64,000 bases of DNA from Longimicrobiales bacterium (GCA_036381495.1 DASVCS010000032.1:10448-74447); one strand, 5' to 3'. Positions 3,206 through 22,547 are shown, counted from the stretch's first letter. Translations and numbers: made by a program. The notes: a model not told the origin generated them from the letters alone.

Positions 3206-3916
3206 TCACCCCGTACCGGTGCGCTGCTGCGGCAGGCACGTGGTGAAGATTTCGTCGACGAGCGCCTGGCGTCTTTCGGCGTCGCTCATCGAGGCGGCCG
3301 GATCGAACACGGATCCGCGATCGGCTCCCGGAGCCTCATCGGCGAGCATCGCCCCGGGGTCGAAGAGCTGCGCGATCGCGTCCAGCCGTTGTTCGACGTC
3401 GAGCAGCGCGCTCGATGCGTGGCCGAGTTGCTGGGCGGTGATGTCCTGGAACTGGAGGCAGCCGATGAGGCGAAACACCTCGTCGCGCAGCTCGGCGCGC
3501 AGTCGTTCATCATCGGCGTTCGGGTCGCCGCGGTCCCGGGCGGCGGCATCGAGTTGGTCCAGCAGGCCGAGCGCGCGATCCAGGCCGTCCAGCATGTCGG
3601 TGGCGGCCAACTCGGTGGCCGACGAGACCTCGCGGAGCTTTGCGTGCGTGTGCTGGACGCGTTCGACCGCCGCCCGTTCGATGGCGCCACGGGAGCGCCG
3701 CAGCACATCGAGGGTGCGGGTGATCTCGTCGTAGGCCCGGAGCAGCATGAGCGGGAGCACGGAGAGCCCGGGCTCCCGGTCCGTGAGTTCGTCGAGGAGG
3801 CGGGCGATCCGGTCGTCGCCCGGGTCGTGTCCGCGCAGCTCTTCGAGGAGGGCGTCGACCAGTCGCAGCGTCTCCTCCGAATCGCTGAGCAACTCGGCGG
3901 TCAGTCGCCTCGGCAC
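3206..3916 (-). CDS. cheZ: CheZ-type CheY-P phosphatase
   Basis: 236-aa ORF immediately downstream of cheY. It contains the CheZ active-site helix motif (LQFQDITAQQL, compare E. coli DFQDLTGQ) and a C-terminal CheY-binding-like tail. Confidence 0.75.
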   Translation of the reverse strand: MPRRLTAELLSDSEETLRLVDALLEELRGHDPGDDRIARLLDELTDREPGLSVLPLMLLRAYDEITRTLDVLRRSRGAIERAAVERVQHTHAKLREVSSATELAATDMLDGLDRALGLLDQLDAAARDRGDPNADDERLRAELRDEVFRLIGCLQFQDITAQQLGHASSALLDVEQRLDAIAQLFDPGAMLADEAPGADRGSVFDPAASMSDAERRQALVDEIFTTCLPQQRTGTG

Positions 3917-3917
3917 G

Positions 3918-4301
3918 TCACCCTCGCGCCGCGCCGGATACCGCGGAGAGGACCTGCTCGATCTTCTCCTTCAGCACCTGAGGCGTGAACGGCTTCACCA
4001 CATAGTTGTTCACGCCGGCCTCGGCGGCGGCCAGGATGTCCTCGCGCGCGCTGCGCGTGGTCACCATGAGGACGGGGACGTCGCGCGCGTCATCGCGTGC
4101 GCGCAACGCGCGCACGAGGTCGAGCCCGCCGACGTTCGGCATGTTCCAATCCGTGATCACGAAGTCGATCGACGCGTCGAACCGGTCGAGCGCCTCCGCG
4201 CCGTCGCTCGCCTCGACGCAGTCCCCGTAGCCGATGCGTTGGAGCGAGTTGATCACGATCCGCCGCATGGTGGCCGAGTCGTCCACGACCAGGAACTTCA
4301 T
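3918..4301 (-). CDS. cheY: Chemotaxis response regulator CheY
   Basis: 127-aa single REC domain (MKFLVVDDS..., ITDWNMPN phospho-acceptor Asp, VVKPFT). Confidence 0.9.
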   Translation of the reverse strand: MKFLVVDDSATMRRIVINSLQRIGYGDCVEASDGAEALDRFDASIDFVITDWNMPNVGGLDLVRALRARDDARDVPVLMVTTRSAREDILAAAEAGVNNYVVKPFTPQVLKEKIEQVLSAVSGAARG

Positions 4302-4330
4302 GGATACTTCCTCCCCGAGACCCGCGGCGC

Positions 4331-4645
4331 TCAGATGTCGCCCGAATCGAGCAGCCGCCTGGCCAGTTCATCGATCATGGCAGGCGCATCATACGCGCCG
4401 CGCGCGATCCGATCCCGGATCCCTTCGACGCGTGCCGGATCGAGGTCCTCCAATTCCTCCGCCGGAAAACGATCGCGCGCCCCGGCGAGCGCGCGTCCCT
4501 CCTCAGAGATCTCGACGTGGTCGGCATGGCGCGAGGCGATCGGGCCACGGACCGGCGCCGGCGCCGGCTCCACCCGGCCGGTGTCGCGCTCTACCCGGAT
4601 GCCCGTTCCCTGCGCGGAATCGGGCCGAACGTCGTCGATATTCAT
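4331..4645 (-). CDS. flgM: Anti-sigma-28 factor FlgM
   Basis: The C-terminal region fits the FlgM family (VEISEEGRAL ... RVEGIRDRIARGAYDAPAMIDELARRLL). I chose the start at ATG 4645 because a GGAGG lies 5 nt upstream and the longer ORF start sits inside the promoter. Confidence 0.8.
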   Translation of the reverse strand: MNIDDVRPDSAQGTGIRVERDTGRVEPAPAPVRGPIASRHADHVEISEEGRALAGARDRFPAEELEDLDPARVEGIRDRIARGAYDAPAMIDELARRLLDSGDI

Positions 4646-4665
4646 AGGCACCTCCATCGATCCAA

Positions 4666-4693
4666 GGTTCGGCCGTCGCGGATGCAAACTTTA
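4666..4693 (-). promoter_or_regulatory. Sigma-28 (FliA) promoter of flgM-cheY-cheZ
   Basis: The minus strand reads TAAAGTTT-N12-GCCGAACC, against the enteric consensus TAAAGTTT-N11-GCCGATAA. The site lies about 20 nt upstream of the flgM start. Confidence 0.6.
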
Positions 4694-6198: not shown

Positions 6199-6594
6199 TC
6201 ATCCGTCGCCGCCCCGGGATGCCGCGTAGCTCTCGGCGGCTTCGCGCCAGCCTTCGTCGAGCATGGCGACCATGTCGATCACGCGGCCGAGGCGCTCCCG
6301 GTCGAGGGAACGACTGATCCCGGCCAGTTCGCCAAGGAAGTAGCCGTAGAGCGCCGCCAGACGCCCGGCCAGGTCGCCGCCCACATCGAAGTTCAATCCG
6401 CCGAGCAGCTCGAAGAGAATGGCCGACGCCTTCTCGAAGCTGGCCGACTTCCCCTCGAGGTCGCACATCTCGATCTGGCGCGCGGCTCGGCGGAGGTTCA
6501 ACAGGAGCTGCTCGTAGAGCAGGGGTACGACCTGCTCGCTCGAGCTGTTGAGGCGCTGGTTCCGCAGATACGCGCCGCCATCATTGTATCGCAT
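6199..6594 (-). CDS. fliS: Flagellar export chaperone FliS
   Basis: 131-aa ORF with the FliS four-helix pattern (PLLYEQLLLNLRRA ... KASAILFELLGGLNFD ... LAALYGYF). Confidence 0.8.
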   Translation of the reverse strand: MRYNDGGAYLRNQRLNSSSEQVVPLLYEQLLLNLRRAARQIEMCDLEGKSASFEKASAILFELLGGLNFDVGGDLAGRLAALYGYFLGELAGISRSLDRERLGRVIDMVAMLDEGWREAAESYAASRGGDG

Positions 6595-6638: not shown

Positions 6639-6821
6639 CTACGAGTGCACGAGTTGCGAGGTCGGCCGTTGCGCCTGGGACTGCGCGCGGGCGAGCGCCG
6701 TCTCCATGGCGGCGAACTCGCGGGCCAACGGTTCGCGGCGCTGGTCGAGGCGCGCCTCCGCGTCCGCGATACGGTCCTCGATCCGCTGAACGCTGGCGTC
6801 CAACCCGTCGATGGGCGGACG
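6639..6821 (-). pseudogene. fliD: fliD 3' remnant (last ~60 codons of the filament cap protein)
   Basis: Translation IDGLDASVQRIEDRIADAEARLDQRREPLAREFAAMETALARAQSQ fits the conserved FliD C-terminal coiled coil. It lies in the canonical position just upstream of fliS. There is no plausible start and no N-terminal or central domains. Confidence 0.55.
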
Positions 6822-6999
6822 ACTCCTTGAAGATGCGTTTGACGACAGCCGGTTTGTTCCCCACGATGATGATGCCCAGGCCCGCGCCCCCGATGATGAA
6901 CTCGGAGACCTGGAGCCGCGCGAAGACGTTGCCGCCGTGCATCGGGTAGCCGGCGGGGATGCTCCCGAAGACGACAGCGAGGCCCGCAATGATGGACAC
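6822..6999 (-). pseudogene. motA: motA 5' remnant (first ~57 codons)
   Basis: From GTG at 6999 the translation is SIIAGLAVVFGSIPAGYPMHGGNVFARLQVSEFIIGGAGLGIIIVGNKPAVVKRIFK. This aligns residue for residue with the E. coli MotA N-terminus (LGYLVVLGTVFGGYLMTGGSLGALYQPAELVIIAGAGIGSFIVGNNGKAIKGTLK). Homology then stops and the frame differs from the fliD remnant. Confidence 0.6.
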
Positions 7000-7113
7000 G
7001 GTCGATTCTGCGCCAGTGCAACGGATGTCCGTGATGATGTCCCGCCCGACAGTATCGGCGAGTCGGGCTTCGGGCTGCAATTCAGGGTTGCGGACGTGGG
7101 CCGGAGGCGCCGC

Positions 7114-7890
7114 GTGAGTGGCGCGGCGGCGGCGTGGCAAGCGCTGGGTGAGGAGATCCTCGCCGGGTTCTGTCACGAGATGAACGGGCGGCTCACCACG
7201 CTGCGCGGCACGCTCGAGCTGGCGTGCATGGACGGCCAGGTCGAGGCGGGGGTGGGCGACGAACTGGCGGCCGAGCTCGAGCGGCTCGAACGCACGGTCC
7301 GGCTGGTTCGCCACCTGGGCGCGGAGCGCGACACGGAGCCCGAGCCGATCCGCCCGATCGAACTCCTGCCGCTGGCCGTGACGCTGCTACGACATCACCG
7401 CGAGCTGGGCGGCATCGAGGTCGAGGTGGCCGAGGTCGGCGACACGCCGGCGGTGCTGGCGCCGTGGTCGCGGCTGCTGCGGCTGCTCACGCTCCTGCTG
7501 GCCGGCGCCGCCGAGGCCGCGCAGCGGGACGGGCGCGGCGGGGTGCGCGTGGAGGTACGAGGCGATGGCGATGACGTGGTGGTGGAGGCGGGGCGCGGGG
7601 CGCGCCCGACCGCGGGGTCCGGGGCCGAGACGCCGGCAGAGGCGAGAGCGGGAGATGCGGTGGCTGTGGGTGGGGCGGAGGCGGGCCGCGGGGCCGGGCT
7701 GGACGGTCCGGTCGGCGATGGAGCCGGCCACGCCCGGACGCCGCCCGGCGATCCCGCGCGAGGCCCGCTCGTGCTTGCCGATGCGTTGCGCGCCGGTGCC
7801 GCCGCATTGGGCGGTACGCTCGTCGGGGCGAGTGGCGCGGAGGATCGGCTCGCGGTGCGCCTGCCGGCCTGGCGCGACGCGGAACCGTAG
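7114..7890 (+). CDS. Sensor-less NtrB/FlrB-like histidine kinase with degenerate ATPase domain
   Basis: GTG start with GGAGG 6 nt upstream. It has an H-box GFCHEMNGRLTTLRG (compare NtrB AHEIKNPLGGLRG). The N-box Asn is absent (LLTLLLAGAAEAA). The G1/G2 boxes are degenerate (EAGRGA, GRGAGL). Confidence 0.5.
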   Translation: MSGAAAAWQALGEEILAGFCHEMNGRLTTLRGTLELACMDGQVEAGVGDELAAELERLERTVRLVRHLGAERDTEPEPIRPIELLPLAVTLLRHHRELGGIEVEVAEVGDTPAVLAPWSRLLRLLTLLLAGAAEAAQRDGRGGVRVEVRGDGDDVVVEAGRGARPTAGSGAETPAEARAGDAVAVGGAEAGRGAGLDGPVGDGAGHARTPPGDPARGPLVLADALRAGAAALGGTLVGASGAEDRLAVRLPAWRDAEP

Positions 7891-7955: not shown

Positions 7956-8471
7956 TCAGAGACGACGACGCGGATGCCGCCGTCGACGCGGATCGCGTCG
8001 CCCGGGCGCCGGGTCAGAATCCGTACGCGGCGCGCCGCAGAGGGCGCGGAGGAGTTCGTCGTCGGAGCCCAGCGCGCCGCGCAGGACGTGGCGATTCAAC
8101 GAGACTTCATCCGAGAGCGCGAGCGCCTTCCGCTGGAGTTCGTCGCGCGCGTCACGCAGCGCATCGGTCATCCGGGGGCCGAGCGCGGCGTCCAGTTCGT
8201 CGAGCGTGATGTCGTCGCGGCCGCCGAGGATCATCAGGAGCGTGCGTCGCGAGCGCCGGGCCTCGCCGATGGTCTGGAGCACCCGGTGCGCCGCGAAGAT
8301 GCTCTCGTCCACCCGCTGCACATCATCGGCGGCCACGCCCTCGCGCTGGGCGCGCAGGATCTGCCCCAGCTCATCGAGCAGGCGCAGTTCGGTGCGAATG
8401 GCCGCTTCGAGCGTCTCCACCGTGGGGCGCGGCGTGGCGGCCGTCCCGGAAGCCGTGGATGCGCCGCTCAT
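7956..8471 (-). CDS. flgN: Flagellar chaperone FlgN-like
   Basis: 171-aa helical ORF (LEAAIRTELRLLDELGQILRAQREGVAADD...). Its start overlaps the upstream stop (ATGA). Assignment rests on position and helical pattern. Confidence 0.6.
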   Translation of the reverse strand: MSGASTASGTAATPRPTVETLEAAIRTELRLLDELGQILRAQREGVAADDVQRVDESIFAAHRVLQTIGEARRSRRTLLMILGGRDDITLDELDAALGPRMTDALRDARDELQRKALALSDEVSLNRHVLRGALGSDDELLRALCGAPRTDSDPAPGRRDPRRRRHPRRRL

Positions 8472-8797
8472 TCGCCGCCCGGCTGGCTGGCCGCATCCGT
8501 GCCGCCGTCGGCGCCGCCGCTCAGGCGGCGATGGAGCGCCGCGCCCAGGCCGCGCTCGAAGCGCGCCGCCGCGAGCACCGAAAGCTCGCCATCCAGCAGT
8601 CCGGAGAAGATGTCCTCACCGGCGCCGCCATCGAGGATGCCGCCCTCCGGGATCGTCTCACGAAGCGCCTTCGTCAGTTGCATCATGAATACTCCTTCCA
8701 GTGCGGCGCACGCTTCGCGCAGTGAGACCTCGCCCGTTGTTCCCGGCGCGGGCCCGGCCACCGGAGCGCGTCCGTCCGCGCGGATCGGCGCGCTCAT
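8468..8797 (-). CDS. Rod-binding protein (FlgJ N-terminal domain only)
   Basis: Rod_binding signature ACAALEGVFMMQLTKALRETIPEGG...GEDIFSGLLDGELSVLAAARFERGLGAAL. No muramidase domain is present. The start at ATG 8797 overlaps the upstream stop. Confidence 0.7.
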   Translation of the reverse strand: MSAPIRADGRAPVAGPAPGTTGEVSLREACAALEGVFMMQLTKALRETIPEGGILDGGAGEDIFSGLLDGELSVLAAARFERGLGAALHRRLSGGADGGTDAASQPGGE

Positions 8798-8931
8798 CGG
8801 ACGTCGACCGCCGCCGCCAGCGCGCCCACGCTGCGCAGCGATTGGAAGATCGCCGCGATCGCCGAGGGTGGCGCGGCGGCGGCGATCGTCGCGACGGCCG
8901 CGACGAGAACGGATCCCCGCATACGCTTCAT
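8794..8931 (-). pseudogene. flgI: flgI mini-ORF (signal peptide plus C-terminal ~25 residues of the P-ring protein)
   Basis: 45 codons: MKRMRGSVLVAAVATIAAAA-PPSAIAAIFQSLRSVGALAAAVDVR. The tail matches the conserved FlgI C-terminus (..TP.DL..ILQ.MK.AGAL.AELEVI). A GGAGGG lies upstream of the ATG. About 320 internal codons are missing. Confidence 0.5.
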
Positions 8932-9713
8932 GATCTTCCCTCCCCTGCCACCTCGATGTGAACCCGTGCGGGCCCGGCCGCGACGCCTTCGAGCCGCCTG
9001 TCCGTCGCGGTCCGGACCGCGACACCCTCTCCGAGCGCCGCCGATCCGATGGCGGTCCCGGGCAGCAGCGGCACCACCAGCGGGCCATCCTCGCCCAGAG
9101 ATGAGGATCGCCCCGCCGCACTCGGCCAGACCGGACTCGCGCGGCGCTGCGAGCGCGCTGGCGAGCTGGACGGTGCCGGAGTCCGTGGGCGTCACGCGCA
9201 GTTCCCGGACGCCGCCGCGGTCGAGCACGGGGGTAGAGCGCGCGCGGAGCAGTGAAGCATCCGCGTCGTGGACTTCGAGGGTGAGGCGTGGGTCGATCGG
9301 ATCGGACAACCGCCGGGAGACCTGGTAACGCGCCGTGCCCGTGATGGCGACCGGGATCCCCGTGCGCGTGCCCCCCGGCTCGAGCCGCAGCTCGGTGATC
9401 ACGCCAGCCGCGCCGGCGGCCACCGCCTCGGCGACGCGCAGCGCCTGCCCCTCTGCCGCCGCGGCCGGATCGCCGCGGGATGGCGGCCGCGTCGGGGCGA
9501 GCGTCCGCGCGATCGCGGCCCAGGTCTCGAAGGCATCCGGCGCGCGCAACGCCGTCCGTGTCAGACCGGCAGATCCCGCGCCAGCGCCTCCCGCAGCGCC
9601 GTCACCGGCCGCTGCTGCCACGCGCGCACGGAGCCCGCCGGCCCGGCCGCGGCACCCGCGGCGATCGCCGGCGCGTGCAGCGCCAGCGCACCGATGGGCG
9701 CCAGCCGCATCAT
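8932..9713 (-). pseudogene. Disrupted ORF translationally coupled to fliA (unknown, possibly degraded flagellar gene)
   Basis: An ATGATG at 9713 overlaps the fliA TGA and encodes a signal-peptide-like MMRLAPIGALALHAPAIAAGAAA..., which stops after 50 codons (9561). Protein-like sequence continues in another frame, then degenerates into an Arg-rich tract before flgI'. Confidence 0.3.
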
Positions 9714-10483
9714 GAGACCGACTCCTCTCGTAGCGTCGCCAGGCGGTCGCGGAGCGTCCCGATGGCCTTCGATCGGATCTGCGAGACCCGCGATTCGGTC
9801 AGATGCAGGATCTTCGCGATCTGGTGCAGCTTCAGTTCCTCGAAGTAGTAGAGCGAGAGCACCACGCGTTCGCGCTCCTTGAGCGTCAGGATCTCGCGAC
9901 GCAGCAGCTCGAGCTCCTGCGTGCGATTGACATCCTGCTCGATCTGTTCGCCGTCCTCGCCGATCAGGACATCGAGCGGCGTGGTCTGGGTGCCGTCCTC
10001 GGTCTCGAGCGGCCGGTCGAGCGAGACCTGCACCGCCTCCTCCGCATCCTGCTCCCAGCGCCAGAGCTTCTCGACGTCGATCCCCAGCGCCTCGGCCGTC
10101 TCCTTGGCATCCGGCGGCCGGTCGAGCGCACCCATCAACGCCTCGCGCACCGAGTTGATCTGCCGCTGCTTCCGCCGGACCGAGCGCGGCGCGTGGTCCC
10201 ACCGGCGCAGGTCGTCCAGGATCGCGCCCCGGATGCGCGGCGCCGCGAAGGTGCTGAACGCCAGACCACGCGAAGGCTCGAAATTCTCGATCGCCTTGAT
10301 CAGCCCGATCGTGCCGGCGCTCACCAGGTCGTCGAACTCTCGCTCGACGTGTAGCGTCCGCACCAACTGCCTCGCCACGTGGTGGACCAGCCGTAGATGA
10401 CGTGACAGCAGCCGCTCCCGCGCGGCCGGATCACCCTTCTTCTGATATGCCTCCCATAGGGTTGCCGATTCCATGGTCTTCAT
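9710..10483 (-). CDS. fliA: RNA polymerase sigma-28 factor FliA
   Basis: Sigma-70 family regions 2-4 are present (LVHHVARQL, DLVSAGTIGLIKAIENFEP, FSTFAAPRIRGAILD, LHQIAKILHLTESRVSQIRSKAI). It sits in a flagellar context. Start chosen at MKTMES. Confidence 0.9.
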   Translation of the reverse strand: MKTMESATLWEAYQKKGDPAARERLLSRHLRLVHHVARQLVRTLHVEREFDDLVSAGTIGLIKAIENFEPSRGLAFSTFAAPRIRGAILDDLRRWDHAPRSVRRKQRQINSVREALMGALDRPPDAKETAEALGIDVEKLWRWEQDAEEAVQVSLDRPLETEDGTQTTPLDVLIGEDGEQIEQDVNRTQELELLRREILTLKERERVVLSLYYFEELKLHQIAKILHLTESRVSQIRSKAIGTLRDRLATLREESVS

Positions 10484-10487: not shown

Positions 10488-10847
10488 TCACCTGGGGGAT
10501 CCAAGTGGGCCGGCCGACCCAAGCCCGGCGAAACTGTGAACGGCGAGCACACGCTCCCCGATGGCGCTTACCGCGACGGGCAGCGGCGAACCCGCTTCGG
10601 CCTCCTGCACGGTCCCACCCGCGTCGATCGCTGCGCGAAGCCCCGGATCATCCGGGAGCGCACCGCCGAACCCGATCTCGCGCGCCAGGAAATGCCGCAC
10701 CCCCTCGCCCCCGCCAAGGGTCACGCCCTCCTCCCGGCCCACTGCCGCTTCGGCTCCGCCCTCGCGCATCACCACGCTCATCCGGTTGTCGAATCGGTGA
10801 ATTTCCGCTGCTCCGGCGCGCTCACCGCTTGGCAGACTCCGTACCAC
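10488..10847 (-). pseudogene. flhG: flhG (MinD/ParA-type) 3' remnant
   Basis: Only the C-terminal part is recognisable (NR...GVRHFLAREIGFGGALPDDPGLRAAIDAGGTV...AVSAIGERVLA; compare B. subtilis FlhG VNR...[22 protein letters not shown]). There is no P-loop N-terminal half. It ends 5 nt before fliA. Confidence 0.45.
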
Positions 10848-11237: not shown

Positions 11238-12647
<1,410 letters not shown>

Positions 12648-15898: not shown

Positions 15899-16008
15899 CG
15901 TGCGGAACTCGGGAGGCGGGGATCGAGGCGCGGGGCGCACGCCGGCGCCCCGATGGTCGCCCGCCGCGCGGCGCCGTGCCGTCGCGGCGAGCGGAGCCCC
16001 GCGTGGGC

Positions 16009-18474
16009 TCAGAATTCCTTCAGGATCGCCTCGTCCTCGTTGAACGGAATCAGACGGCGGGACTCATCCGCCGCTTGCCCGTTGCGCCCCCGCGCCGACG
16101 TCCCACGGCGCGTGCGCCGCGCCTCCTCCATCGGCAGCCTCCCCGCCGGTCCCCCGCTCGCCACCCTCGTTTCGCTGCGCTCCGCAAGGCGGAACTCGGC
16201 AACGAGCCGGCGCATCCCCTCCGCCTGACGACTCAACCCGTCCGCCGCACTCGCGCTCTCCTCCGAGTTCGCCGCCGTCTGCTGCGTCAGCGAGTTCATC
16301 TGCTCCACCGCCACGTTGATCTGTTCCACTCCCTGACTCTGCTGCTCACTCGCCGCCGCGATCTCCGCCATCACCTCGCCCACGCGGTTCACCTGCTCGT
16401 CGATCTCTTCCAGGTTCGAGAGCACTTCCTGGTTCAGCGCGACGCCGCCTTCCGCCTTCGCAACGCTCTCCTCGATCAACTGCGCCGTGTTCTTCGCGGC
16501 TTCCGCGCTCCGCATGGCCAGGTTCCGCACCTCCTCCGCGACCACCGCGAAGCCCTTCCCGGCCTCACCCGCCCGCGCCGCTTCGACTGCCGCGTTCAGC
16601 GCCAGCAGATTCGTCTGGAACGCGATCTCATCGATCGTCTTCACGATCTTCGCCGTCGCGTCGCTGCTCGCCTTGATCTCCTCGACCGCCGTCGAGAGGC
16701 GACGCATGCTGCCGACACCGCGCCCCGCGCTCTCCCGCGCGCGCTCCGCCAGGCTCCGCGCCTCCTTCGCGTTCGCCGTGTTCTGCTGCGTCATGCTGCT
16801 CAGCTCCTGGAGGCTGCTCGACACCTCCTCGAGCGAGCTGGCCTGCTCCCCCGCCCCTTCCGCCAATGCCTGGCTGCCACGGCTGATCTGCGCACTCGCC
16901 GCCGCCACCTGGTCCGCCGCCGCCGCCACGCCGCTCAACGCCTCGTCCAGACTCTCCAGCGCCGTGTTCAGCGCCTCCTTGATCCGCGCGTGGTCACCCT
17001 CGTACTCACCTTGCATCCGGACGGTCAGGTCCCGCGCCGCCACCCGATCGAGCACCCGTGACGCCTCGTTGATCGGGCCGACCACCGCATCCAGCGTCCG
17101 GTTGATCCCCTCGACGATCGCGCGGTACGCACCCGCGAACTTGTCGGCATTGCCCCGGGTCGCGAGACGCCCCGCCTGCGCCGCCGCGGTCAGACGCGTC
17201 GTCTCCTCCGTCAGTTCGCGCAGCGATGCGGAGATCCGCAGCAACGGCGCCGCGATCTCATCCCCATCGCCGCCATCCGGCCGCTCGTACGTCAGGTCGC
17301 CATCGGCAAAGCGGTACAATGCACCGACCACGTGCTCCTGGAGATTGTCCGCGAACTCATCCATCGTCCGCGCCAGCACCCCGATCTCGTCCTCACGATC
17401 CATCTCGAGACGGTGGCTCAGATCGCCGCCCGACATCTTCTGGATCATGAAGACCACCTTCGACAGCGGCTGCGCGATCCGCGTCGCGCTCATCCACGCC
17501 AGGACCGCCACGCCGCCCGCCACGCACAGCGCCAGCGCCACCAGGAACCACATCAGGTCGGTCGATTCCGCGAACGCCTCGCCCGCATCCTCCGTGACCA
17601 GGACGCCGGCCTTGCCGCCCATGAAGCCGCGGTACCACCCCTCCGTCGCGCCGCCGTTGTCCAGCGCGCCGTAGCTCGCCAATACGGCGTCATCGCCGAA
17701 CAGCGGCTCGACCGTGTAACCCGTCCGCCCCTGCGCCATCTCCGCACCCGCACGACTCCCCTGAATGTCCAGCGTCAAGACCTCGTCAGGATCCGTCGAC
17801 GCGATCACCGTCCCCGCCGGATCCACCACGTACGCCCGGACCGTCTCCTGCCCCTGCGTCGCGAAGTACGACTCGACGTAGTTCAGCACCATCCCCGCGG
17901 TCGCCTGCCAGTCCAGCTCCGCCACGACCACACCCAGGTTCTCGTCCGTCATCGATCGAACCGCGTCCGCGATCAGGATCTGCGGCCGCCCATCCGGACC
18001 CCGTTGCACCGGGCTCAGATACGTCGGCGAGTTCTCCGCGATGCCACCCTGGAACCACGCCGTTCCCACCACGTTCTGTGGCGCGTGCGCCAGCGCCTCC
18101 ACACTGCTCGCCGCCTTCAGCACGCCCTCCCGGTCGTAGACCAGGATCCCCCGGATGAGCCTCGATCGCGCGATCAGGTCCGAGAGCACCGCCTGAACCG
18201 CCGTCGTGTCCCCCATCCCCATCGCCGCCAGAACCAGCTCCGTATTGCTGCCAATGACCTGGATATCCAGCGCACGCTCGTAAATGATCCGGTCGAACCA
18301 GCTCGCCGCCTGATCCGCCACCAACGCGCGGTCGCGCCCCATCCGCTCCTCGAGCGTGCCGCGCATCGTGAACACCGCCATGCCGATCGAGATCGCCAGC
18401 GGCAGCAGGGCGATCGCCAGTGATGTGACCAGCAGCCTGGTACGCAGACTCTTCTTCAAGAGATCGATCATCAT
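16009..18474 (-). CDS. Methyl-accepting chemotaxis protein (large periplasmic sensor, HAMP, extended signalling domain)
   Basis: 821 aa with an N-terminal TM, a ~280-aa extracytoplasmic (Cache-like) region, a second TM, HAMP, and the conserved MCP hairpin ([40 protein letters not shown]). Confidence 0.9.
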
Positions 18475-18516: not shown

Positions 18517-18939
18517 TCAGTTGCTGTAGACGATCGGCAGCGCGACCATCGTGCGCACCGGTTTCCCGTTCAGCTTGCCGGGAACGAACCGGAGCTGCTT
18601 GGCCACCTCGCGGGCCGCATCACCCAGCGCACTCGCTGTGGCCGCCAGCACCTTGATCGTCTCGGGCTCGACCCGGCCATCCGGCCCGACCACGAACTGA
18701 AGCTGAACCTTCCCCGTGACACCCGCCATGCGCAGCGGCGCCGGGTACGACTCCTTGATCAGAGCCCTCGCGCGAGCCTCCGACTCGAAGGTGGGCAGCG
18801 ACGTCAGCTCGGACGGACTGTAGATCGGCGCCGCCTGCGCCCACGCGGGCTCATGCGCGAGCAACAGCAACGAAACCGCGATGATGGCCGGAAACCACCA
18901 TCGCAAAATTTCACACCGATCCACCGTTCCGTGCTTCAT
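18517..18939 (-). CDS. TonB C-terminal-domain protein (secreted)
   Basis: 140 aa with a signal/TM segment and a TonB_C-like fold (YPAPLRMAGVTGKVQLQFVVGPDGRVE...ALGDAAREVAKQLRFVPGKLNGKPV). AGGAGG lies upstream of the ATG. There is no proline-rich spacer. Confidence 0.7.
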   Translation of the reverse strand: MKHGTVDRCEILRWWFPAIIAVSLLLLAHEPAWAQAAPIYSPSELTSLPTFESEARARALIKESYPAPLRMAGVTGKVQLQFVVGPDGRVEPETIKVLAATASALGDAAREVAKQLRFVPGKLNGKPVRTMVALPIVYSN

Positions 18940-18976: not shown

Positions 18977-19004
18977 GTATCGGACGCGCCGGGCCCGGAC
19001 TTTA
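18977..19004 (-). promoter_or_regulatory. Sigma-28 promoter upstream of the TonB_C gene / MCP
   Basis: The minus strand reads TAAAGTCC-N12-TCCGATAC. It has the same architecture and 12-nt spacing as the flgM and cheA promoters and lies ~38 nt upstream of the ATG. Confidence 0.55.
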
Positions 19005-19068: not shown

Positions 19069-19641
19069 TCACGACTCCGCCTCAGCCGATGATGCCGCCT
19101 GCACCGCCTGCAACGCCGTCACTTCGCTCTTCTCGAGGACGCGTTCGATGTCGAGGAGCAGCCGGACCTTCCCGGCCGTCTTCGCGATGCCGAGCAGGTA
19201 TTCCGTTGTCACGCCACTGCCGAAACTCGGCGCATCCTCGATCTCCGCCGCCGGGATGTCGACCACCTCCGATACGCGGTCGACCATCAGCCCCATCTGC
19301 ACGCCCGTCACCTCGACGACGATCATGCACTGTTCGCGCGATTCCTCGCCCGGCGGCATCCCGAGCTTCAGCCGCAGGTCCACGATCGGGATCACCCGCC
19401 CCCGCAGGTTGATGACGCCGCGGATGAACTCGGGAACGCGGGGCACCCGCGTGATCGGGAGGCGTCCGATGATCTCCTGCACGTTGAGGATCCCGACGCC
19501 GTACTCCTCGTCGCCCAGCGAGAACGTCAGGAACTTGCCCGCAATCGCCTCTTTCGCGACGGTCTCCTGGCTCGTGGCCGTTTCGCTCATGAGTTCGTCC
19601 CCCGTGCCTGAGGCGGCGGCGCGACTCCGGCGCGGCATCAT
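19069..19641 (-). CDS. cheW: Chemotaxis coupling protein CheW
   Basis: CheW domain (KFLTFSLGDEEYGVGILNVQEIIG...IRGVINLRGRVIPIVDLR). An ATGATG at 19641 overlaps the cheA TGA. An alternative start is at 19590. Confidence 0.85.
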   Translation of the reverse strand: MMPRRSRAAASGTGDELMSETATSQETVAKEAIAGKFLTFSLGDEEYGVGILNVQEIIGRLPITRVPRVPEFIRGVINLRGRVIPIVDLRLKLGMPPGEESREQCMIVVEVTGVQMGLMVDRVSEVVDIPAAEIEDAPSFGSGVTTEYLLGIAKTAGKVRLLLDIERVLEKSEVTALQAVQAASSAEAES

Positions 19642-21719
19642 GCCACCGACCGGAGTGCGGACCCGACGCCGTTCCCGTGTCCGGGCTGCCTCGAAATCGA
19701 AATGATCTGCGCGGGATCGAGGATCAGCCCGACGTGTCCATCGCCCAGGATCGCCGCGCCCGAGATCCCGGGCACATGCCCGATCCACGCGCCGAGCGGC
19801 TTCGCAACGACCTGCGTCTGCGCGATCAACTCGTCGACCAGAAGCGCACAACGCCGTTCACCGCTCCCGATGACGACCAGGAGCGCCTGCGTCGGATCCG
19901 TTTCGGCGCCCTCGATGTCGAAGAGGCGGTGCAGCCGCACGACCGGCAGGAGCGCATCCCGCAGCTTCACCAGTTCGTCCCGCCCCGCCACGGTCGGCAG
20001 CGCATCGCGCGTCGGCCGGAAACTCATCTGGATGCCGACCGTCGGGATGATGTAGCGCTCGCCGCCGACCCGAATCAGCATGCCGTCCGTGATGGCGAGC
20101 GTCAGTGGAAGGCGAAGCGAGAACGTCGTGCCCTTCCCCCGCTCGGACGCGATCTCGACGCGGCCGCCGATCGCCTCGACGTTGCGCCGCACCACGTCCA
20201 TGCCCACGCCTCGGCCCGAGATGTTCGTCAGCTCCTCGGCCGTCGAGAACCCGGGCGCGAAGATCAGCTCGAAGACATCCGCGTCCGAGAGGCCACGGTC
20301 CGATTCCAGGAGCCCTCGCGCCAACGCCTTCTCGACGATCCGATCACGGTCCAACCCGCGGCCATCGTCTTGCAGCTCGATCACCACGTTGCCGCGGTGG
20401 TGGTACGCCGCCAGCCGCACCGTGCCCCGCCGCGGCTTCCCGTTCGCCTCGCGCACGTCCGGCGGCTCGATCCCGTGGTCCACCGCGTTGCGGACCATGT
20501 GCACCAGAGGGTCGCTGATGAAGTCGACCATGTTCCGGTCGATCTCCGTGTCCTCCGCCTCCATGACGTAGTCGATCAGCTTGCCGCGCCGCTGTGCGAC
20601 GTCGCGCGCAAGGCGCGCCATCTTCTGGAACGTCGCCTTGAGCGGCACCATGCGCATCGCGATCGTCAGGTCTTGGAGCTCGCGCACGATCTTGCCGGCG
20701 TGCGCGACCGCCCGGGTCAGGTCCTCGCCGACGCCGCCGACCGCGCACTCGCGCGCGACCATCGACTGCGAGACCACCAGCTCGCCCACCATGTCCACCA
20801 GGCGATCGAGTCGGTCCGTTCGGACCCGAACCCAGGACTCCGCCCCCCGGTCCGTCCCCCGCGCCGGCTCCGATCCGCCCGCCGCGGCAGCGCGTGCCCC
20901 ACTTCCGGCACCATCGACGGCACCTCCGGCCGCCGCACTCGCCGCCGCCCCGGCCGTCGGATCCGGCGCGTCCAGCGACCGCAACAGCTCGGCGTAACCC
21001 GCCGGCGTGGCCGGCACGCCGCCCGCCAATTGTTCCTGGAGCCCCGTGATGAACGCGCCCAACATGTCCACGGCGCGGAGCGCCAGCTCCACATAGGCGC
21101 CGCCGAACCGGACCTCACCCTCCCGAACCCGACTCAACAGCGACTCGGCTCGGTGCGCCAGCTCCGTGACCTCTTCCAGGCCGAGGAACGCCGATGTCCC
21201 CTTGAGCGTGTGGAAAACGCGGAAGACGGTGTTGCACGACTCGACGTCGTCCGGATCCGACTCGAGAAGGAGGAGCGCGGACTCCGCGGCATCGAGCGAA
21301 TCGCGGCTCTCATCGATGAAACATTCGAGCAGGTCGCGATCCGCCGCCGCGATATCGATCGCCGCCGGCGCATCATCCGATGCCGGCGTCGCCTCGCGCG
21401 ATGACGCCACTTCCGACGGATCCTGTCCGTCCAGCGCGAGCATCGCACGCTCGATGAGCGAGCCCACCTCGGAGACCACCGCGTCGGGCTTCGCCACACG
21501 GCCGCGCCGGATCTCATCCAGCCGCCAGGCCGCGTCCAGCACGAACGCACGCGCGAGCGGCCACGGCTCCAGCCGGCTGTCCAGCCGGTGCAAGGCGCGA
21601 CGGATGACGTCGAGCTCCGCCATGTCCGTCGCATCGACCTGGAGCAGCAGCGCCGCGATCTCGTTCAGCGAGAGCGGCTCATCCCCGACCGCAGGTTTTT
21701 GCTTTTTTCTTCTCGGCAC
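19638..21719 (-). CDS. cheA: Chemotaxis histidine kinase CheA
   Basis: HPt (FRVFHTLKGTSAFLG), dimerisation, HATPase_c (DDGRGLD, GRGVGMDVV) and CheW-like domains are present. I moved the start to GTG 21719 (GGAG 6 nt upstream) because a sigma-28 promoter lies inside the longest ORF. Confidence 0.9.
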   Translation of the reverse strand: MPRRKKQKPAVGDEPLSLNEIAALLLQVDATDMAELDVIRRALHRLDSRLEPWPLARAFVLDAAWRLDEIRRGRVAKPDAVVSEVGSLIERAMLALDGQDPSEVASSREATPASDDAPAAIDIAAADRDLLECFIDESRDSLDAAESALLLLESDPDDVESCNTVFRVFHTLKGTSAFLGLEEVTELAHRAESLLSRVREGEVRFGGAYVELALRAVDMLGAFITGLQEQLAGGVPATPAGYAELLRSLDAPDPTAGAAASAAAGGAVDGAGSGARAAAAGGSEPARGTDRGAESWVRVRTDRLDRLVDMVGELVVSQSMVARECAVGGVGEDLTRAVAHAGKIVRELQDLTIAMRMVPLKATFQKMARLARDVAQRRGKLIDYVMEAEDTEIDRNMVDFISDPLVHMVRNAVDHGIEPPDVREANGKPRRGTVRLAAYHHRGNVVIELQDDGRGLDRDRIVEKALARGLLESDRGLSDADVFELIFAPGFSTAEELTNISGRGVGMDVVRRNVEAIGGRVEIASERGKGTTFSLRLPLTLAITDGMLIRVGGERYIIPTVGIQMSFRPTRDALPTVAGRDELVKLRDALLPVVRLHRLFDIEGAETDPTQALLVVIGSGERRCALLVDELIAQTQVVAKPLGAWIGHVPGISGAAILGDGHVGLILDPAQIISISRQPGHGNGVGSALRSVA

Positions 21720-21765
21720 TCCCGGCTCCGCGGCTGCCGGATTTTCATACAATTTCTCCTGGCCA

Positions 21766-21793
21766 GTCTCGGCCGCCGGTCCGGGAAACTTTA
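21766..21793 (-). promoter_or_regulatory. Sigma-28 promoter of cheA-cheW
   Basis: The minus strand reads TAAAGTTT-N12-GCCGAGAC, with its -10 end ~45 nt upstream of the proposed cheA start. Confidence 0.6.
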
Positions 21794-21875
21794 ACGCGGC
21801 TCGCACGCGGGTTCCGAGCCGCACGGCCGCTCGCCGCGCTCGGTCCGCGGGCGCGTACGACGTCGAAATGCCGCG

Positions 21876-22547
21876 TCAATCGCGCGAGGCGACCTCGTCC
21901 AGTGTTTCCAGTAGATTCTGGAATTCGAACGGCTTGCGGATCACCGGACAGCCGGTCTCGCGGGCAATCCGGTCGACGGCCGCGTGGGCGGGGTCGCCCG
22001 TGATGATGATCGTGCGTTTCAGGACCGTGGGGAAATCCCGCGCGGGCTGGTGCAGCAGCCAATACCCGGTCCCGTCCGTCGTCTTCAGATCGGTGACCAC
22101 GAGCTCGGGTGGAACGCCGGAGGTGATGCATGCCAGCGCGCTGCGGCCGCTCCACGCCTCGAGCACGCGGTGCCCGAGCTATTCGAGGAACCGGCGGATC
22201 GTCGTGCGAACCGCGGCGTCATCGTCCACCACCAGCACCGACCGCGCGCGCCGCAGCGTGAGCGGCACCGGCCGGAACGCGGAGGTCGAGGCGGGCGGAC
22301 CGAGCGGGAACTCGACCGTGAACGTCGTCCAGTGGTCCTTCGAGCGAGCGTACCAGATCCGCCCCCCGTACGCACGGACCATCCCCCGCGCAATGGCGAG
22401 GCCCAGGCCAAGGTGCCCGGATTTCGCGGTGAAGAAGGGCTCGAACACCTGCTCCCGCAGATCTCTCCGCACCCCCGGCCCGTTGTCCTTCACGCGCAGC
22501 GTGACCCTTTCATCGCCGGCTTCGGCCTCGATCCGGACGATGCCGCC
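21876..22547 (-). pseudogene. Hybrid histidine kinase remnant (5'-truncated HATPase_c plus REC interrupted by in-frame TAG)
   Basis: The G1/G2 boxes are retained (VKDNGPGV, GLGLAIARG) but there is no H-box or N-box upstream. The REC domain reads VLVVDDDAAVRTTIRRFLE-TAG(22179-22181)-LGHRVLEAWSGRSALACI...VVTDLKTTDGTG. Confidence 0.55.

What the first reader, a model, noticed from the sequence alone, without database searches (positions are those of the whole stretch)
3206..22547. Flagellar structural genes are reduced to scars while the sigma-28/FlgM switch and a full chemotaxis pathway remain intact
Within 19 kb the following appear intact:
- flgM, cheY, cheZ, fliS, flgN
- a FlgJ-type rod-binding gene
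- fliA
- a sigma-54 response regulator
- cheB, cheR, an MCP, cheW and cheA

Three sigma-28 promoters of identical architecture (TAAAGTYY-N12-NCCGA) are also retained.

Every motor, filament or assembly gene I can recognise is broken:
- motA' joined to 'fliD (6639-6999)
- flgI reduced to 45 codons (8794-8931)
- flhG lacking its ATPase half (10488-10847)
- flgL frameshifted and truncated, abutting half a fliW (12784-13821)
- a hybrid kinase with an in-frame stop (21876-22547)

The candidate promoters in front of the dead genes (motA', flgL) are visibly poorer matches than those in front of the live ones.

This pattern suggests a lineage that lost the flagellum by multiple deletions but kept, and perhaps repurposed, the FliA/FlgM checkpoint and Che signalling. 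FlgM normally needs the flagellar export apparatus to be removed, so how the switch would operate without one is an open question.
Basis: inference. Interest (0 to 1): 0.7.

Follow-up and report, generated by a model that had tools for sequence, protein, structure and literature searches.

The report
Decaying flagellar locus, regulators still intact
In an uncultured soil-type bacterium (Longimicrobiales, Gemmatimonadota) the native flagellum gene cluster has been gutted by at least eight deletions, while its sigma-28/FlgM switch and a chemotaxis pathway are still intact; this pattern is already known from non-flagellated Legionella, so it is real but not new in kind.

Summary

Corrections:
- flgN is not intact; its conserved C-terminus was removed with flgK.
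- The "flgI" relic is a flgH'::'flgI fusion.

Still intact are fliA, flgM, cheY, a cheZ-like gene, fliS, the rod-binding gene, a sigma-54 regulator and cheA/W/R/B plus an MCP. Three exact sigma-28 promoters (0.1 expected by chance) precede flgM-cheYZ, cheAW and tonB-like-mcp-cheRB.

Short contigs from three sequencing runs reproduce four junction regions, and 40 kb of neighbouring housekeeping genes is undamaged, so this is not assembly noise.

Remnants show no extra divergence and keep coding-type GC3. Genes that are useless without a flagellum (fliS, rod-binding) are also intact. The loss therefore looks recent, and intactness does not demonstrate repurposing. The "decayed promoter" claim fails, because motile relatives carry the same weak -35 boxes.

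Legionella oakridgensis and L. longbeachae are direct precedents. Verdict: new member of a known kind, modest interest.

The parts
3206..3916 (-). cheZ-like gene, apparently intact (last gene of the flgM-cheY-cheZ operon)
   Evidence: Weak Pfam CheZ hit, E 0.0056, below the gathering score. No NCBIfam or PDB hit. LQFQDITAQ motif read. 43%-identical homologue next to cheY in L038.
3918..4301 (-). cheY, intact
   Evidence: Response_reg E 1.8e-26. Best NCBIfam hit is CheY, 132.9 bits, below the equivalog cutoff. 66% identical to the L038 homologue.
4331..4645 (-). flgM (anti-sigma-28), intact, 104 aa
   Evidence: Pfam FlgM 29 bits against a gathering score of 25. NCBIfam 27.5 bits, below the cutoff of 40.75. 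41% identical to L085 FlgM.
4669..4693 (-). sigma-28 promoter in front of flgM-cheY-cheZ
   Evidence: Exact match TAAAGTTT-N12-GCCGA. Three exact matches in the window against 0.10 expected.
6199..6594 (-). fliS, intact
   Evidence: Pfam FliS E 2e-21. NCBIfam 53.9 bits against a cutoff of 53.75. Identical copy in contigs from two runs.
6639..6812 (-). 'fliD remnant: only the last ~55 codons
   Evidence: FliD_C profile positions 192-235 of 236, E 1.4e-3. L085 FliD residues 627-677 of 684, 37% identity.
6815..6999 (-). motA' remnant: first ~61-73 of 285 codons, in a different frame from 'fliD
   Evidence: MotA_N E 7e-10. 51-61% identical to MotA residues 1-57/73 of L006, L009 and L012. The junction is reproduced in L087 and L088.
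7055..7079 (-). sigma-28-like promoter of motA' (TGCAGCCC-N12-GCCGATAC)
   Evidence: Aligned by eye with TCCAGTYY-N..-GCCGATAC upstream of motA in L006, L009 and L012.
6811..7890 (+). small kinase-like gene divergent from motA, probably intact (true start likely near 7120)
   Evidence: 31-38% identical to the ORF at the same position in L006, L008, L009 and L012. Only a faint HisKA hit.
7961..8026 (-). csrA' remnant: first ~22 codons only
   Evidence: 75-85% identical to residues 3-22 of the L012 and L009 proteins. The L009 protein is CsrA by Pfam, E 3e-18.
7956..8471 (-). flgN', 3'-truncated: homology ends near 8028, then the ORF reads out of frame across csrA'
   Evidence: Pfam FlgN E 2e-10. 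The conserved C-terminal Y...LLxNRxV motif of 40 orthologues is missing. Region reproduced in L089.
8468..8797 (-). rod-binding (FlgJ N-domain type) gene, intact, with ATGA overlaps at both ends
   Evidence: Pfam Rod-binding 23.5 bits against a gathering score of 25.1. 49-62% identical to relatives. Sequence read.
8794..8931 (-). flgH'::'flgI relic, 45 codons: flgH start fused in frame to the last ~38 codons of flgI
   Evidence: 56-67% identical to FlgI residues 304/316 to the end in L009 and L012. The start overlaps the flgA stop as ATGA.
8928..9077 (-). 'flgA remnant: last ~45 codons, with the native stop
   Evidence: 62-66% identical to the C-terminus of the L005, L008 and L009 proteins. 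The L005 protein is ChapFlgA by Pfam.
9100..9621 (-). X' : N-terminal ~175-215 residues of a 390-520 aa AMIN-like protein that follows fliA in relatives
   Evidence: 53.5% identical to L005 residues 40-195 of 519. Weak AMIN hit on the L005 protein.
9710..10483 (-). fliA (sigma-28), intact
   Evidence: NCBIfam FliA_WhiG 218.9 bits against a cutoff of 189.6. 74% identical to L005. Keeps 89 of 91 highly conserved columns, with no rate acceleration. Identical protein in two Logan contigs.
10488..10724 (-). 'flhG remnant: last ~78 of ~271 codons, ATPase part gone
   Evidence: L005 residues 333-385 (53% identity), L009 (52%) and L012 FlhG residues 194-252. Covered by L095.
11048..11177 (.). dispersed intergenic repeat sitting in the gap where flgB...flhF is missing
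   Evidence: Copies at 28076-28330 and 29830-29900 (inverted), partial copy at 25794-25833. No Rfam hit and no significant fold.
11238..12647 (-). sigma-54 response regulator, intact; in L002 its orthologue heads the flgB...fliJ operon
   Evidence: Pfam Response_reg + Sigma54_activat + HTH_8. 77% identical to L002. Synteny shown.
12784..13574 (+). flgL' pseudogene: residues 1-~236 in frame, a 1-nt-type frameshift near 13470, residues ~237-272 in another frame, last ~24 codons deleted
   Evidence: Flagellin_N E 6e-17. NCBIfam FlgL 145.7 bits, covering profile positions 1-184 of 387 only. Two HSPs in two frames against L002 FlgL. Reproduced in L001.
13573..13821 (+). 'fliW remnant: second half only, from about residue 81 of 160
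   Evidence: Pfam FliW profile positions 50-122 of 122. 51% identical to L002 FliW residues 81-154.
13853..14989 (-). cheB, intact
   Evidence: CheB_methylest E 8e-64 plus Response_reg.
15071..15940 (-). cheR, intact
   Evidence: CheR E 5e-61 plus CheR_N.
16009..18474 (-). methyl-accepting chemotaxis protein (dCache-HAMP-MCPsignal), intact
   Evidence: Pfam.
18517..18939 (-). TonB C-terminal-domain protein, first gene of the mcp-cheR-cheB operon
   Evidence: TonB_C E 1.4e-13. NCBIfam tonB_Cterm 42.1 bits against a cutoff of 27.1.
18980..19004 (-). sigma-28 promoter in front of tonB-like-mcp-cheR-cheB
   Evidence: Exact pattern match.
19069..19590 (-). cheW, intact
   Evidence: CheW E 1.8e-39. 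Start codon options listed.
19638..21719 (-). cheA, intact (start probably the GTG at 21719-21717)
   Evidence: Hpt, H-kinase_dim, HATPase_c and CheW domains. The N-terminal extension is shared with the L090 homologue.
21769..21793 (-). sigma-28 promoter in front of cheA-cheW
   Evidence: Exact pattern match. Sequence read.
21876..22544 (-). hybrid histidine-kinase remnant: last 224 of 613 residues, with an in-frame TAG at 22179-22181 (Lys codon in L002)
   Evidence: 63% identical to L002 kinase residues 390/391-613. HATPase_c profile starts only at position 23. Weak Response_reg hit after the stop.

Best explanation
This is the native flagellum/chemotaxis super-locus of an uncultured Longimicrobiales population, caught in recent deletional decay.

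WHAT HAS HAPPENED (shown)
- At least eight separate deletions, one frameshift and one nonsense mutation have removed or broken the structural and assembly genes that relatives keep at this locus.
- Missing or broken: flgB to flhF, flgF, flgG, flgA, flgH, flgI, flgK, flgL, fliD, motA and whatever lay between motA and fliD.
- Several regulators are also broken or gone: flhG, csrA, fliW and a hybrid kinase.
- No flagellum can be built from this locus.

WHAT SURVIVES
- fliA, flgM, cheY, a cheZ-like gene, cheA, cheW, cheR, cheB, an MCP, fliS, the rod-binding gene and a sigma-54 response regulator.
- These sit in the stretches of DNA between deletions.
- Three strong sigma-28 promoters still head flgM-cheYZ, cheAW and tonB-like-mcp-cheRB.

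MOST LIKELY READING (inferred)
- The survivors are mainly genes that have not yet been hit, rather than genes recruited to a new job.
- If the circuit still runs, FliA would transcribe flgM and the che operons.
- FlgM cannot be exported through a hook-basal body here, so it would have to be removed by proteolysis or would simply hold FliA off.
For: ORTHOLOGY OF THE LOCUS
- L002 carries fliJ...flgB <- RR | flgL fliW | kinase ... recG ftsY.
- L005, L009 and L012 carry flhA-flhF-flhG-fliA-X-flgF-flgG-flgA-flgH-flgI-rod-binding-flgN-flgK-csrA-(kinase-like)-motA.
- The window keeps the same order and orientation, with holes.

REMNANTS AND JUNCTIONS
- Each remnant matches the expected part of its orthologue at 37-85% identity.
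- Native ATGA gene overlaps are preserved at the edges of remnants.

NOT ASSEMBLY NOISE
- The dcw cluster, recG, ftsY, uvrD and other genes across about 40 kb are intact.
- Logan contigs from SRR25158368, SRR23047312 and SRR23047317 match at 99.93-100%. They cover the motA'/'fliD, flgN'/csrA' and flgL'/'fliW junctions and the 'flhG truncation.

RECENCY
- flgL' shows no excess divergence (mean distance difference about 0).
- Remnant GC3 is 0.76-0.92, against 0.77-0.93 for intact genes.

SURVIVORS ARE NOT OBVIOUSLY SELECTED
- fliS and the rod-binding gene have no known role without a flagellum, yet both are intact.
- flgN, csrA, fliW and flhG are damaged.
- No sigma-54 promoter remains in the locus for the retained regulator.

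SECOND LOCUS
- No FlhA from this MAG (accession series HEX7049xxx) appears among the 120 best hits to the closest relative's FlhA.
Against: - Both point lesions (the flgL frameshift and the kinase stop) lie in genes already truncated by deletion, and none lies in about 12.5 kb of untruncated flagellar/che coding sequence. If lesions fell at random on surviving coding DNA this would happen about 5% of the time (my estimate from the coordinates). That hints weakly at purifying selection on the survivors.
- fliA keeps 89 of 91 highly conserved positions, and three perfect sigma-28 promoters persist.
- Long-term retention of fliA/flgM and of che operons after flagellar loss is documented in Legionella, so repurposing is plausible.
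- The rest of the genome was not available, so a second flagellar system cannot be excluded.
- Two stretches rest on the MAG assembly alone: 8576-9141 (the 'flgA and flgH'::'flgI junctions) and 11087-11989 (the link from the repeat to the response regulator).
Confidence: 0.6

Rival explanations
1. The flagellum is lost, but the FliA/FlgM switch and the Che pathway (with the TonB-like protein and MCP) are kept by selection. They would now control a non-flagellar output, with FlgM removed by regulated proteolysis instead of export, as in Legionella oakridgensis.
For: - There are no lesions in fliA, flgM, cheAWYZRB or the MCP, about 12 kb in all.
- Three exact sigma-28 promoters are present against 0.1 expected.
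- fliA is fully conserved at 89 of 91 key columns.
- Both point lesions fall in already truncated genes.
- Precedents exist: L. oakridgensis keeps a functional fliA/flgM with FlgM degraded, and L. longbeachae keeps fliA, fleN, fleR/S and a che operon without flagella (PMC5655016).
Against: - Equally intact are fliS and the rod-binding gene, which have no known role without a flagellum, so intactness is not diagnostic.
- Dead flgL' is no more diverged than live orthologues, and remnants keep coding GC3. The time since loss is therefore too short to reveal selection.
- No close relative sharing the deletions exists in the databases: the next-best FlgL and FliS hits are at 59% and 56%.
- No candidate output system was seen in the window.
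Confidence: 0.25
2. The organism is still flagellated from a second, complete flagellar gene set elsewhere in the genome, either acquired or duplicated. This locus would then be the redundant copy decaying, with fliA, flgM and che shared by the working system.
For: - Dual flagellar systems with one inactive ancestral set are known in other bacteria (my own knowledge, for example Rhodobacter sphaeroides).
- This would explain why the che genes, fliA, flgM and fliS stay intact.
- The rest of the MAG could not be inspected.
Against: - The locus is the orthologue of the single native locus of relatives.
- No FlhA with this MAG's accession series appears among the top 120 relatives of the closest FlhA.
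- Database-wide searches with this MAG's FlgL and FliS returned no second copy from it.
- A foreign system would need its own chaperones and regulators.
Confidence: 0.08
3. The deletions and frame disruptions are artefacts of metagenome assembly, such as chimeric joins at repeats or indel errors.
For: - The sequence is a short-read MAG contig.
- A dispersed repeat sits exactly at the largest gap.
- Logan contigs break at that repeat (L095 ends at 11087).
- Two junction regions lack independent coverage.
Against: - Four junction regions are reproduced at 99.93-100% identity in independently built contigs. These include contigs from two other runs, SRR23047312 and SRR23047317.
- The 'flhG truncation lies 200-320 bp before the repeat and inside L095.
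- About 40 kb of adjacent housekeeping genes have no frame problems.
- Eight artefactual deletions all landing in flagellar genes is implausible.
Confidence: 0.03

Closest known systems
Legionella oakridgensis (and other clade III Legionella): non-flagellated, retaining only fliA and flgM
   Same: - The flagellar regulon is lost while sigma-28 and its anti-sigma factor persist.
- flgM is itself sigma-28-dependent. Here an exact sigma-28 promoter precedes flgM.
- The same puzzle arises of FlgM control without an export apparatus. In L. oakridgensis it is answered by growth-phase- and temperature-dependent degradation (PMC5655016).
   Different: - In Legionella the loss is old and clean, with no remnants reported in the review. 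Here a dozen gene fragments remain, so the process is caught in mid-course.
- The phylum is different (Gemmatimonadota).
- Function of FliA/FlgM is untested here.
- che genes are present here but absent in L. oakridgensis.
Legionella longbeachae subclade: flagella-negative but chemotaxis-positive, retaining fliA, fleN, fleR/fleS and flgD
   Same: The same combination of no structural flagellar genes, a retained sigma-28, a retained sigma-54-dependent two-component regulator, and a complete che operon (PMC5655016).
   Different: - In L. longbeachae the che operon is thought to have been acquired by an ancestor of the subclade, and it is not known to be sigma-28-driven.
- Here the che operons carry sigma-28 promoters and sit inside the decayed flagellar locus, so they look like leftovers of the flagellar regulon.
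- Here fleN/flhG is truncated.
Flagellar pseudogene clusters of recently non-motile lineages (Shigella, Yersinia pestis, Burkholderia mallei, Bordetella pertussis); my own knowledge, not checked here
   Same: Recent loss of motility through deletions, frameshifts and nonsense mutations, with many neighbouring flagellar and che genes still intact simply because too little time has passed.
   Different: - Those are host-restricted pathogens, often with IS-mediated events. This is an environmental MAG with no IS elements seen, only a small dispersed repeat at one gap.
- Here deletions dominate over point lesions (at least 8 against 2).
Sigma-28 family factors working outside flagella (Streptomyces WhiG, Chlamydia sigma-28); my own knowledge
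   Same: They show that a FliA/WhiG-type sigma factor (NCBIfam TIGR02479, met here) can be kept for non-flagellar regulons.
   Different: Those systems use other anti-sigma partners and have no flagellar remnants. Nothing here shows a new regulon.

Membership tests
FliA/WhiG sigma-28 factors | Match to the family model above its curated cutoff, with sigma-70 regions 2, 3 and 4 present | tested here: met
   - TIGR02479 scores 218.9 bits against a cutoff of 189.6.
- Pfam finds regions r2, r3 and r4.
- 89 of 91 columns conserved among 68 orthologues are kept.
FliA/WhiG sigma-28 factors | Cognate promoters (TAAA-N15-GCCGATAA type) in front of late flagellar/che genes | tested here: met
   - Three exact TAAAGTYY-N13-CCGA sites are present against 0.10 expected.
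- Weaker GCCGATAC sites lie upstream of motA' and flgL' and are shared with relatives.
- Promoter activity itself was not tested.
FlgM anti-sigma-28 factor | Match to FlgM family models | tested here: inconclusive
   - Pfam PF04316 scores 29 bits against a gathering score of 25, which passes.
- NCBIfam TIGR03824 scores 27.5 bits against a cutoff of 40.75, which fails.
- The protein is 41% identical to the L085 protein at the equivalent position.
FlgM anti-sigma-28 factor | Binds FliA and is removed by export through the hook-basal body | not testable with these tools
   The export apparatus genes flhA, flhB and fliPQR are absent from the locus. Binding and turnover need experiments.
CheZ phosphatase | Match to the CheZ family model, and the catalytic D...Q motif | tested here: inconclusive
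   - Pfam CheZ scores 17 bits against a gathering score of 30.7.
- There is no NCBIfam or PDB sequence hit.
- A motif FQDITAQ resembling E. coli QDFQDLTGQ is present (sequence; the E. coli motif is from my own knowledge).
- The gene lies immediately after cheY.
FliS flagellin chaperone | Match to family models above cutoff | tested here: met
   Pfam E 2e-21. TIGR00208 scores 53.9 bits against a cutoff of 53.75.
FlgN chaperone | Full-length match, including the C-terminal region conserved in the clade | tested here: not met
   - Pfam FlgN passes at 41.5 bits against a gathering score of 30.5.
- The terminal Y...LLxNRxV motif, present in the orthologues, is replaced by out-of-frame csrA sequence.
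Non-flagellated lineage retaining the sigma-28/FlgM and che modules (Legionella longbeachae/oakridgensis type) | Absence of flagellar structural and export genes from the whole genome | not testable with these tools
   - The genes are shown missing or broken at the native locus only.
- An indirect check found no FlhA from this MAG.
Non-flagellated lineage retaining the sigma-28/FlgM and che modules (Legionella longbeachae/oakridgensis type) | Intact fliA and flgM, with flgM under sigma-28 control | tested here: met
Non-flagellated lineage retaining the sigma-28/FlgM and che modules (Legionella longbeachae/oakridgensis type) | Long-term retention (purifying selection) of the kept genes after the loss | tested here: inconclusive
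   - Relative-rate tests show no acceleration in either live fliA or dead flgL'.
- No close relative is available for dN/dS.

The most novel reading that the evidence does not exclude
A free-living Gemmatimonadota lineage has discarded its flagellum but keeps, under selection, a self-contained sigma-28/FlgM-controlled chemosensory module. The module comprises CheA/W/Y/Z/R/B, one dCache MCP and a TonB-C-domain protein, all behind perfect sigma-28 promoters. It would now steer a non-flagellar output, with FlgM turned over without any export apparatus.
Probability: 0.2. Interest if true: 0.5.

Novelty: new member of a known kind. Interest (0 to 1): 0.3.

Why it matters
The locus is an unusually legible snapshot of how a bacterium loses its flagellum. 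More than a dozen recognisable fragments allow each deletion to be mapped against intact relatives. They show that loss proceeds by many medium-sized deletions rather than by point decay, and that regulators, chaperones and chemotaxis genes can outlive the machine they serve.

It extends a pattern so far described mainly in Legionella to an environmental phylum with few cultures. It is also a warning for MAG-based trait prediction: annotation calls "FlgL", "FliS", "FliA" and a full Che pathway here, which could be scored as motility potential, although no flagellum can be made from this locus.

If the retained switch turned out to be functional, it would be a second natural system for studying FlgM control without secretion.

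Tried and rejected
LOOK-UPS THAT FAILED OR ADDED LITTLE
- Exact-protein look-ups for cheY, the response regulator, the rod-binding protein, the X' ORF and a 254-aa FliA variant found nothing. The junctions at 8576-9141 and 11087-11989 therefore stay unverified by a second assembly.
- The window's own MAG is not in the genome collection (best FliA hit 74%).
- The metagenome scan with CheA gave only one distant homologue (45% identity, 49.5% GC). It was useful only to show that the CheA N-terminal extension is genuine.

IDEAS TESTED AND DROPPED
- General frameshift noise: overlapping long ORFs elsewhere in the window are high-GC artefacts, and those genes are intact.
- A frameshift at the 5' end of cheA (an ATG with a strong RBS at 21747 is out of frame): rejected as a lesion, because an in-frame GTG 16 codons before the conserved N-terminal block fits the L090 homologue.
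- Promoter decay at motA' and flgL': rejected.
- A sigma-54 promoter for the retained regulator: none found.
- The repeat at the largest gap as a structured RNA or Rfam family: no support.

EARLY MISASSIGNMENTS I CORRECTED
- The fragment at 8952-9077 is flgA, not flgH.
- The ORF at 2788-3120 is not flgM.

Full report
SOURCE AND GENE CALLING

The window is about 70% G+C, so long spurious ORFs abound. I selected genes by third-position GC and then tested them against Pfam and NCBIfam. The ORF at 12784-13821 is 100% identical to NCBI protein HEX7049138.1, named "MAG TPA: FlgL [Longimicrobiales bacterium]", on an 89-kb contig. FliS is HEX7049128.1. The sequence is therefore a metagenome-assembled genome of the phylum Gemmatimonadota.

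WHAT IS INTACT

| Gene | Coordinates | Evidence |
|---|---|---|
| flgM | 4331-4645(-) | Pfam FlgM 29 bits, above the gathering score |
| cheY | 3918-4301(-) | |
| cheZ-like | 3206-3916(-) | weak Pfam hit only, an FQDITAQ motif, and a homologue next to cheY in L038 |
| fliS | 6199-6594(-) | |
| rod-binding | 8468-8797(-) | |
| fliA | 9710-10483(-) | FliA_WhiG 218.9 bits against a cutoff of 189.6 |
| sigma-54 response regulator | 11238-12647(-) | |
| cheB, cheR, dCache-HAMP MCP, cheA | 13853-21719(-) | |
| cheW | 19069-19590(-) | |

The ORF between cheW and the MCP (18517-18939) is a TonB C-terminal-domain protein, not cheW.

The pattern TAAAGTYY-N13-CCGA occurs exactly three times in 64 kb, against 0.10 expected. 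All three sites are on the coding strand just upstream of flgM, of the tonB-like gene and of cheA.

REFERENCE ARRANGEMENT IN RELATIVES

- In L002 (FlgL 58% identical) the sigma-54 regulator heads flgB-flgC-fliE-fliF-fliG-fliH-fliI-fliJ. It is divergent from flgL-fliW, which are followed by a 613-aa hybrid kinase and, further on, recG and ftsY.
- Eighty genomes were fetched with FliA. These include the closest relative L005 (74%) and a complete Longimicrobiales chromosome, L012.
- In these the order is fliM...fliR-flhB-flhA-flhF-flhG-fliA-X-flgF-flgG-flgA-flgH-flgI-rod-binding-flgN-flgK-csrA-(kinase-like gene, opposite strand)-motA-motB.
- In L085 the order flgL-fliW-fliC-fliD-?-fliS-?-flgM is seen.

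THE WINDOW AGAINST THAT TEMPLATE

Reading the minus strand downward from 12647:
- The response regulator is followed by 60 bp, a dispersed repeat (11048-11177) and about 320 bp of non-coding DNA.
- Next come the last ~78 codons of flhG, then fliA.
- Deletion 1 therefore removes flgB through flhF plus two thirds of flhG. This is at least 20 kb, judged from L002 plus L012.
- After fliA comes the N-terminal ~200 residues of the AMIN-like protein X.
- Deletion 2 removes the rest of X, flgF, flgG and most of flgA.
- The last ~45 codons of flgA follow, with the native stop.
- The flgH start codon overlaps that stop as ATGA. About seven flgH codons are fused in frame to the last ~38 codons of flgI.
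- The rod-binding gene follows intact, still translationally coupled (ATGA) at both ends.
- flgN follows, but its homology stops at ...CGAP near 8028.
- Deletion 4 has removed its conserved C-terminal Y...LLxNRxV motif together with all of flgK.
- It joins flgN to the first ~22 codons of csrA, which are 85% identical to L009 CsrA.
- The rest of csrA is gone (deletion 5).
- After the divergent kinase-like gene, motA retains only residues 1-~70 (MotA_N E 7e-10). It abuts, in another frame, the last ~55 codons of fliD, which lie directly upstream of fliS. This is deletion 6.

On the plus strand:
- flgL reads in frame to about 13470.
- It continues in a different frame for residues ~237-272, which are 66-72% identical to L002.
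- It is then joined to fliW at residue ~81. This is a frameshift plus deletion 7.
- The resulting 345-aa chimeric ORF is what GenBank calls FlgL.

Beyond the che operons, only residues 390-613 of the hybrid kinase remain, next to recG (deletion 8). A Lys codon has mutated to TAG at 22179-22181.

IS IT REAL?

- The remaining 40 kb of the window (dcw cluster from mraZ to ftsZ, uvrD, peptidases, tRNA synthetase, bamB) shows no frame problems.
- Short contigs assembled independently by Logan match the window at 99.93-100%.

| Contig | Run | Window span | Covers |
|---|---|---|---|
| L001 | SRR25158368 | 11989-14959 | flgL frameshift and flgL'/'fliW junction |
| L087 | SRR25158368 | 4636-7008 | motA'/'fliD junction |
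| L088 | SRR23047312 | 5403-7283 | motA'/'fliD junction |
| L089 | SRR25158368 | 7269-8576 | flgN'/csrA' junction |
| L094 | SRR23047317 | 9141-10579 | fliA and most of X' |
| L095 | SRR25158368 | 9661-11087 | truncated flhG |

- Not covered are 8576-9141 and 11087-11989.
- L095 ends exactly where the exact core of the repeat begins. The physical link from the repeat to the response regulator therefore rests on the MAG assembly alone.
- The flhG truncation itself lies inside L095.

HOW OLD IS THE LOSS, AND ARE THE SURVIVORS SELECTED?

- Relative-rate comparisons show that fliA is not accelerated and keeps 89 of 91 highly conserved columns.
- The dead flgL' is equally unaccelerated.
- Remnants keep the third-position GC of coding DNA: 0.76-0.92, against 0.77-0.93 for intact genes.
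- The inactivations are therefore recent relative to the only available comparisons, where the nearest relatives are 56-74% identical. Intactness alone says little.
- Two observations argue against a tidy "structure dead, regulation alive" rule:
  - Regulators csrA, fliW and flhG are destroyed, and flhF is absent.
  - Flagellum-only helpers (fliS, rod-binding protein) and a sigma-54 activator with no sigma-54 promoter left in the locus are intact.
- A weak counter-signal exists. Both point lesions lie in genes already truncated by deletion, which would occur about 5% of the time if lesions hit surviving coding DNA at random (my estimate).

PROMOTERS

- The weaker sites in front of motA' (TGCAGCCC-N12-GCCGATAC) and flgL' (TCAACTTC-N12-CACGATAC) do exist.
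- Motile relatives have the same kind of site at the same place: TCCAGTYY...GCCGATAC before motA in L006, L009 and L012, and TCAACTTA...GACGATAC before flgL in L002.
- At three mismatches the pattern is no commoner than chance (58 matches against 49 expected).
- The difference in promoter quality is therefore ancestral and is not decay.

SECOND LOCUS?

- The MAG is absent from the searchable genome collection.
- As an indirect test I searched the 5.8-billion-protein set with the closest relative's FlhA. The three hits named as Longimicrobiales TPA proteins have accessions HEY8484255, HET9986167 and HEY8470465. None falls in this MAG's HEX7049xxx series.
- This is weak negative evidence only.

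COMPARISON WITH WHAT IS KNOWN

The Legionella flagellar-regulon review (PMC5655016) describes two precedents.
- L. oakridgensis and other clade III species lack the whole regulon except functional fliA and flgM. [quoted passage not shown]
- L. longbeachae and its subclade are flagella-negative but keep fliA, fleN, fleR/fleS and flgD and carry a chemotaxis operon.

The present locus shows the same end state being approached in another phylum, with the intermediate debris still visible. From my own knowledge, recently non-motile pathogens (Shigella, Yersinia pestis) show comparable mixtures of dead and intact flagellar genes, and WhiG and chlamydial sigma-28 show that the sigma family can serve other regulons.

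VERDICT

- The deletion-loss interpretation is supported.
- Repurposing is possible but undemonstrated, and I rate it at roughly one in four or five.
- The finding is a new member of a known kind.
- Its practical value is as a well-resolved example of flagellar decay, and as a caution against scoring motility from MAG annotations.

Noticed in passing
window 11048-11177; 28076-28330; 29830-29900 (inverted); partial copy at 25794-25833: A dispersed intergenic repeat with core GGGAGCGGGAGCGGGAACGTTTACGTTTACGGGG. One copy lies exactly in the gap left by the largest flagellar deletion. Two copies form a 57-nt, 96% inverted repeat flanking the M23 peptidase gene (28342-29943). It has no Rfam match and no significant fold. 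It might have mediated the deletion, or it might confuse assemblers: a Logan contig ends at its edge.
   Followed up: partly
window 18517-18939 (-), promoter at 18980-19004: A 140-aa TonB C-terminal-domain protein is the first gene of the sigma-28-driven mcp-cheR-cheB operon, which is an unusual companion for che genes. It also gives a faint NCBIfam hit (21 bits, below cutoff) to the AgmX/PglI C-terminal domain of myxobacterial gliding proteins.
   Followed up: no
window 21745-21747 (-), just downstream of the cheA sigma-28 promoter: An AT-rich AGGAGAAATTGT-ATG (strong RBS plus ATG) opens a 27-codon ORF that is out of frame with cheA and runs through an A-rich tract. It could be a leader peptide or a relic of an older start. 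cheA itself probably starts at the in-frame GTG at 21719.
   Followed up: partly
window 6811-7890 (+); L012 18727-19785; L009 18678-20399; L006 11999-12667; L008 10836-11555: A small gene with only a faint HisKA-like H-box (FCHEMNGRL) and no clear Pfam domain is conserved, divergent from motA, across Longimicrobiales flagellar loci. It survives in the decayed locus. Its function is unknown.
   Followed up: no
L005 10768-12327; L008 2680-4242; L009 10753-11922; window 9100-9621: A 390-520 aa protein with a weak AMIN-domain hit directly follows fliA and precedes flgF in several Longimicrobiales. L012 has an unrelated 268-aa protein at that position. It may be a clade-specific flagellar accessory protein.
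   Followed up: no
L012 16824-17714 and 17678-18199 (complete chromosome OZ252109.1): flgK of this long-read 'complete' relative is split into two overlapping ORFs (FlgK_D1 in the first, Flg_bbr_C in the second). This suggests a frameshift or an indel error in that assembly.
   Followed up: no
upstream of motA in L006, L009 and L012, and at window 7055-7079: A clade-specific variant sigma-28-type promoter, TCCAGTYY-N12/13-GCCGATAC, is conserved in front of motA. flagellin in L085 has TAAAGTTC-N12-CCGA at 6181-6204.
   Followed up: partly
window 25859-27958 (-): A 699-aa ORF between ftsY and the M23 peptidase has coding-type GC3 but no Pfam hit. A homologue sits at the same position in L002 (its start is 62% identical).
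   Followed up: no
window 29958-29988, 41109-41139 (inverted) and 28008-28039: Short runs of the pentamer CCCCAG/GGGCT ((CCCAG)n-like) recur in intergenic spots of the dcw region.
   Followed up: no
window 10088 and 7263: Single-nucleotide differences exist between the MAG and Logan contigs. One is C/T at a third codon position of fliA, within the same run. The other is A/G in the kinase-like gene, in run SRR23047312. The population is therefore polymorphic and present in several samples.
   Followed up: partly
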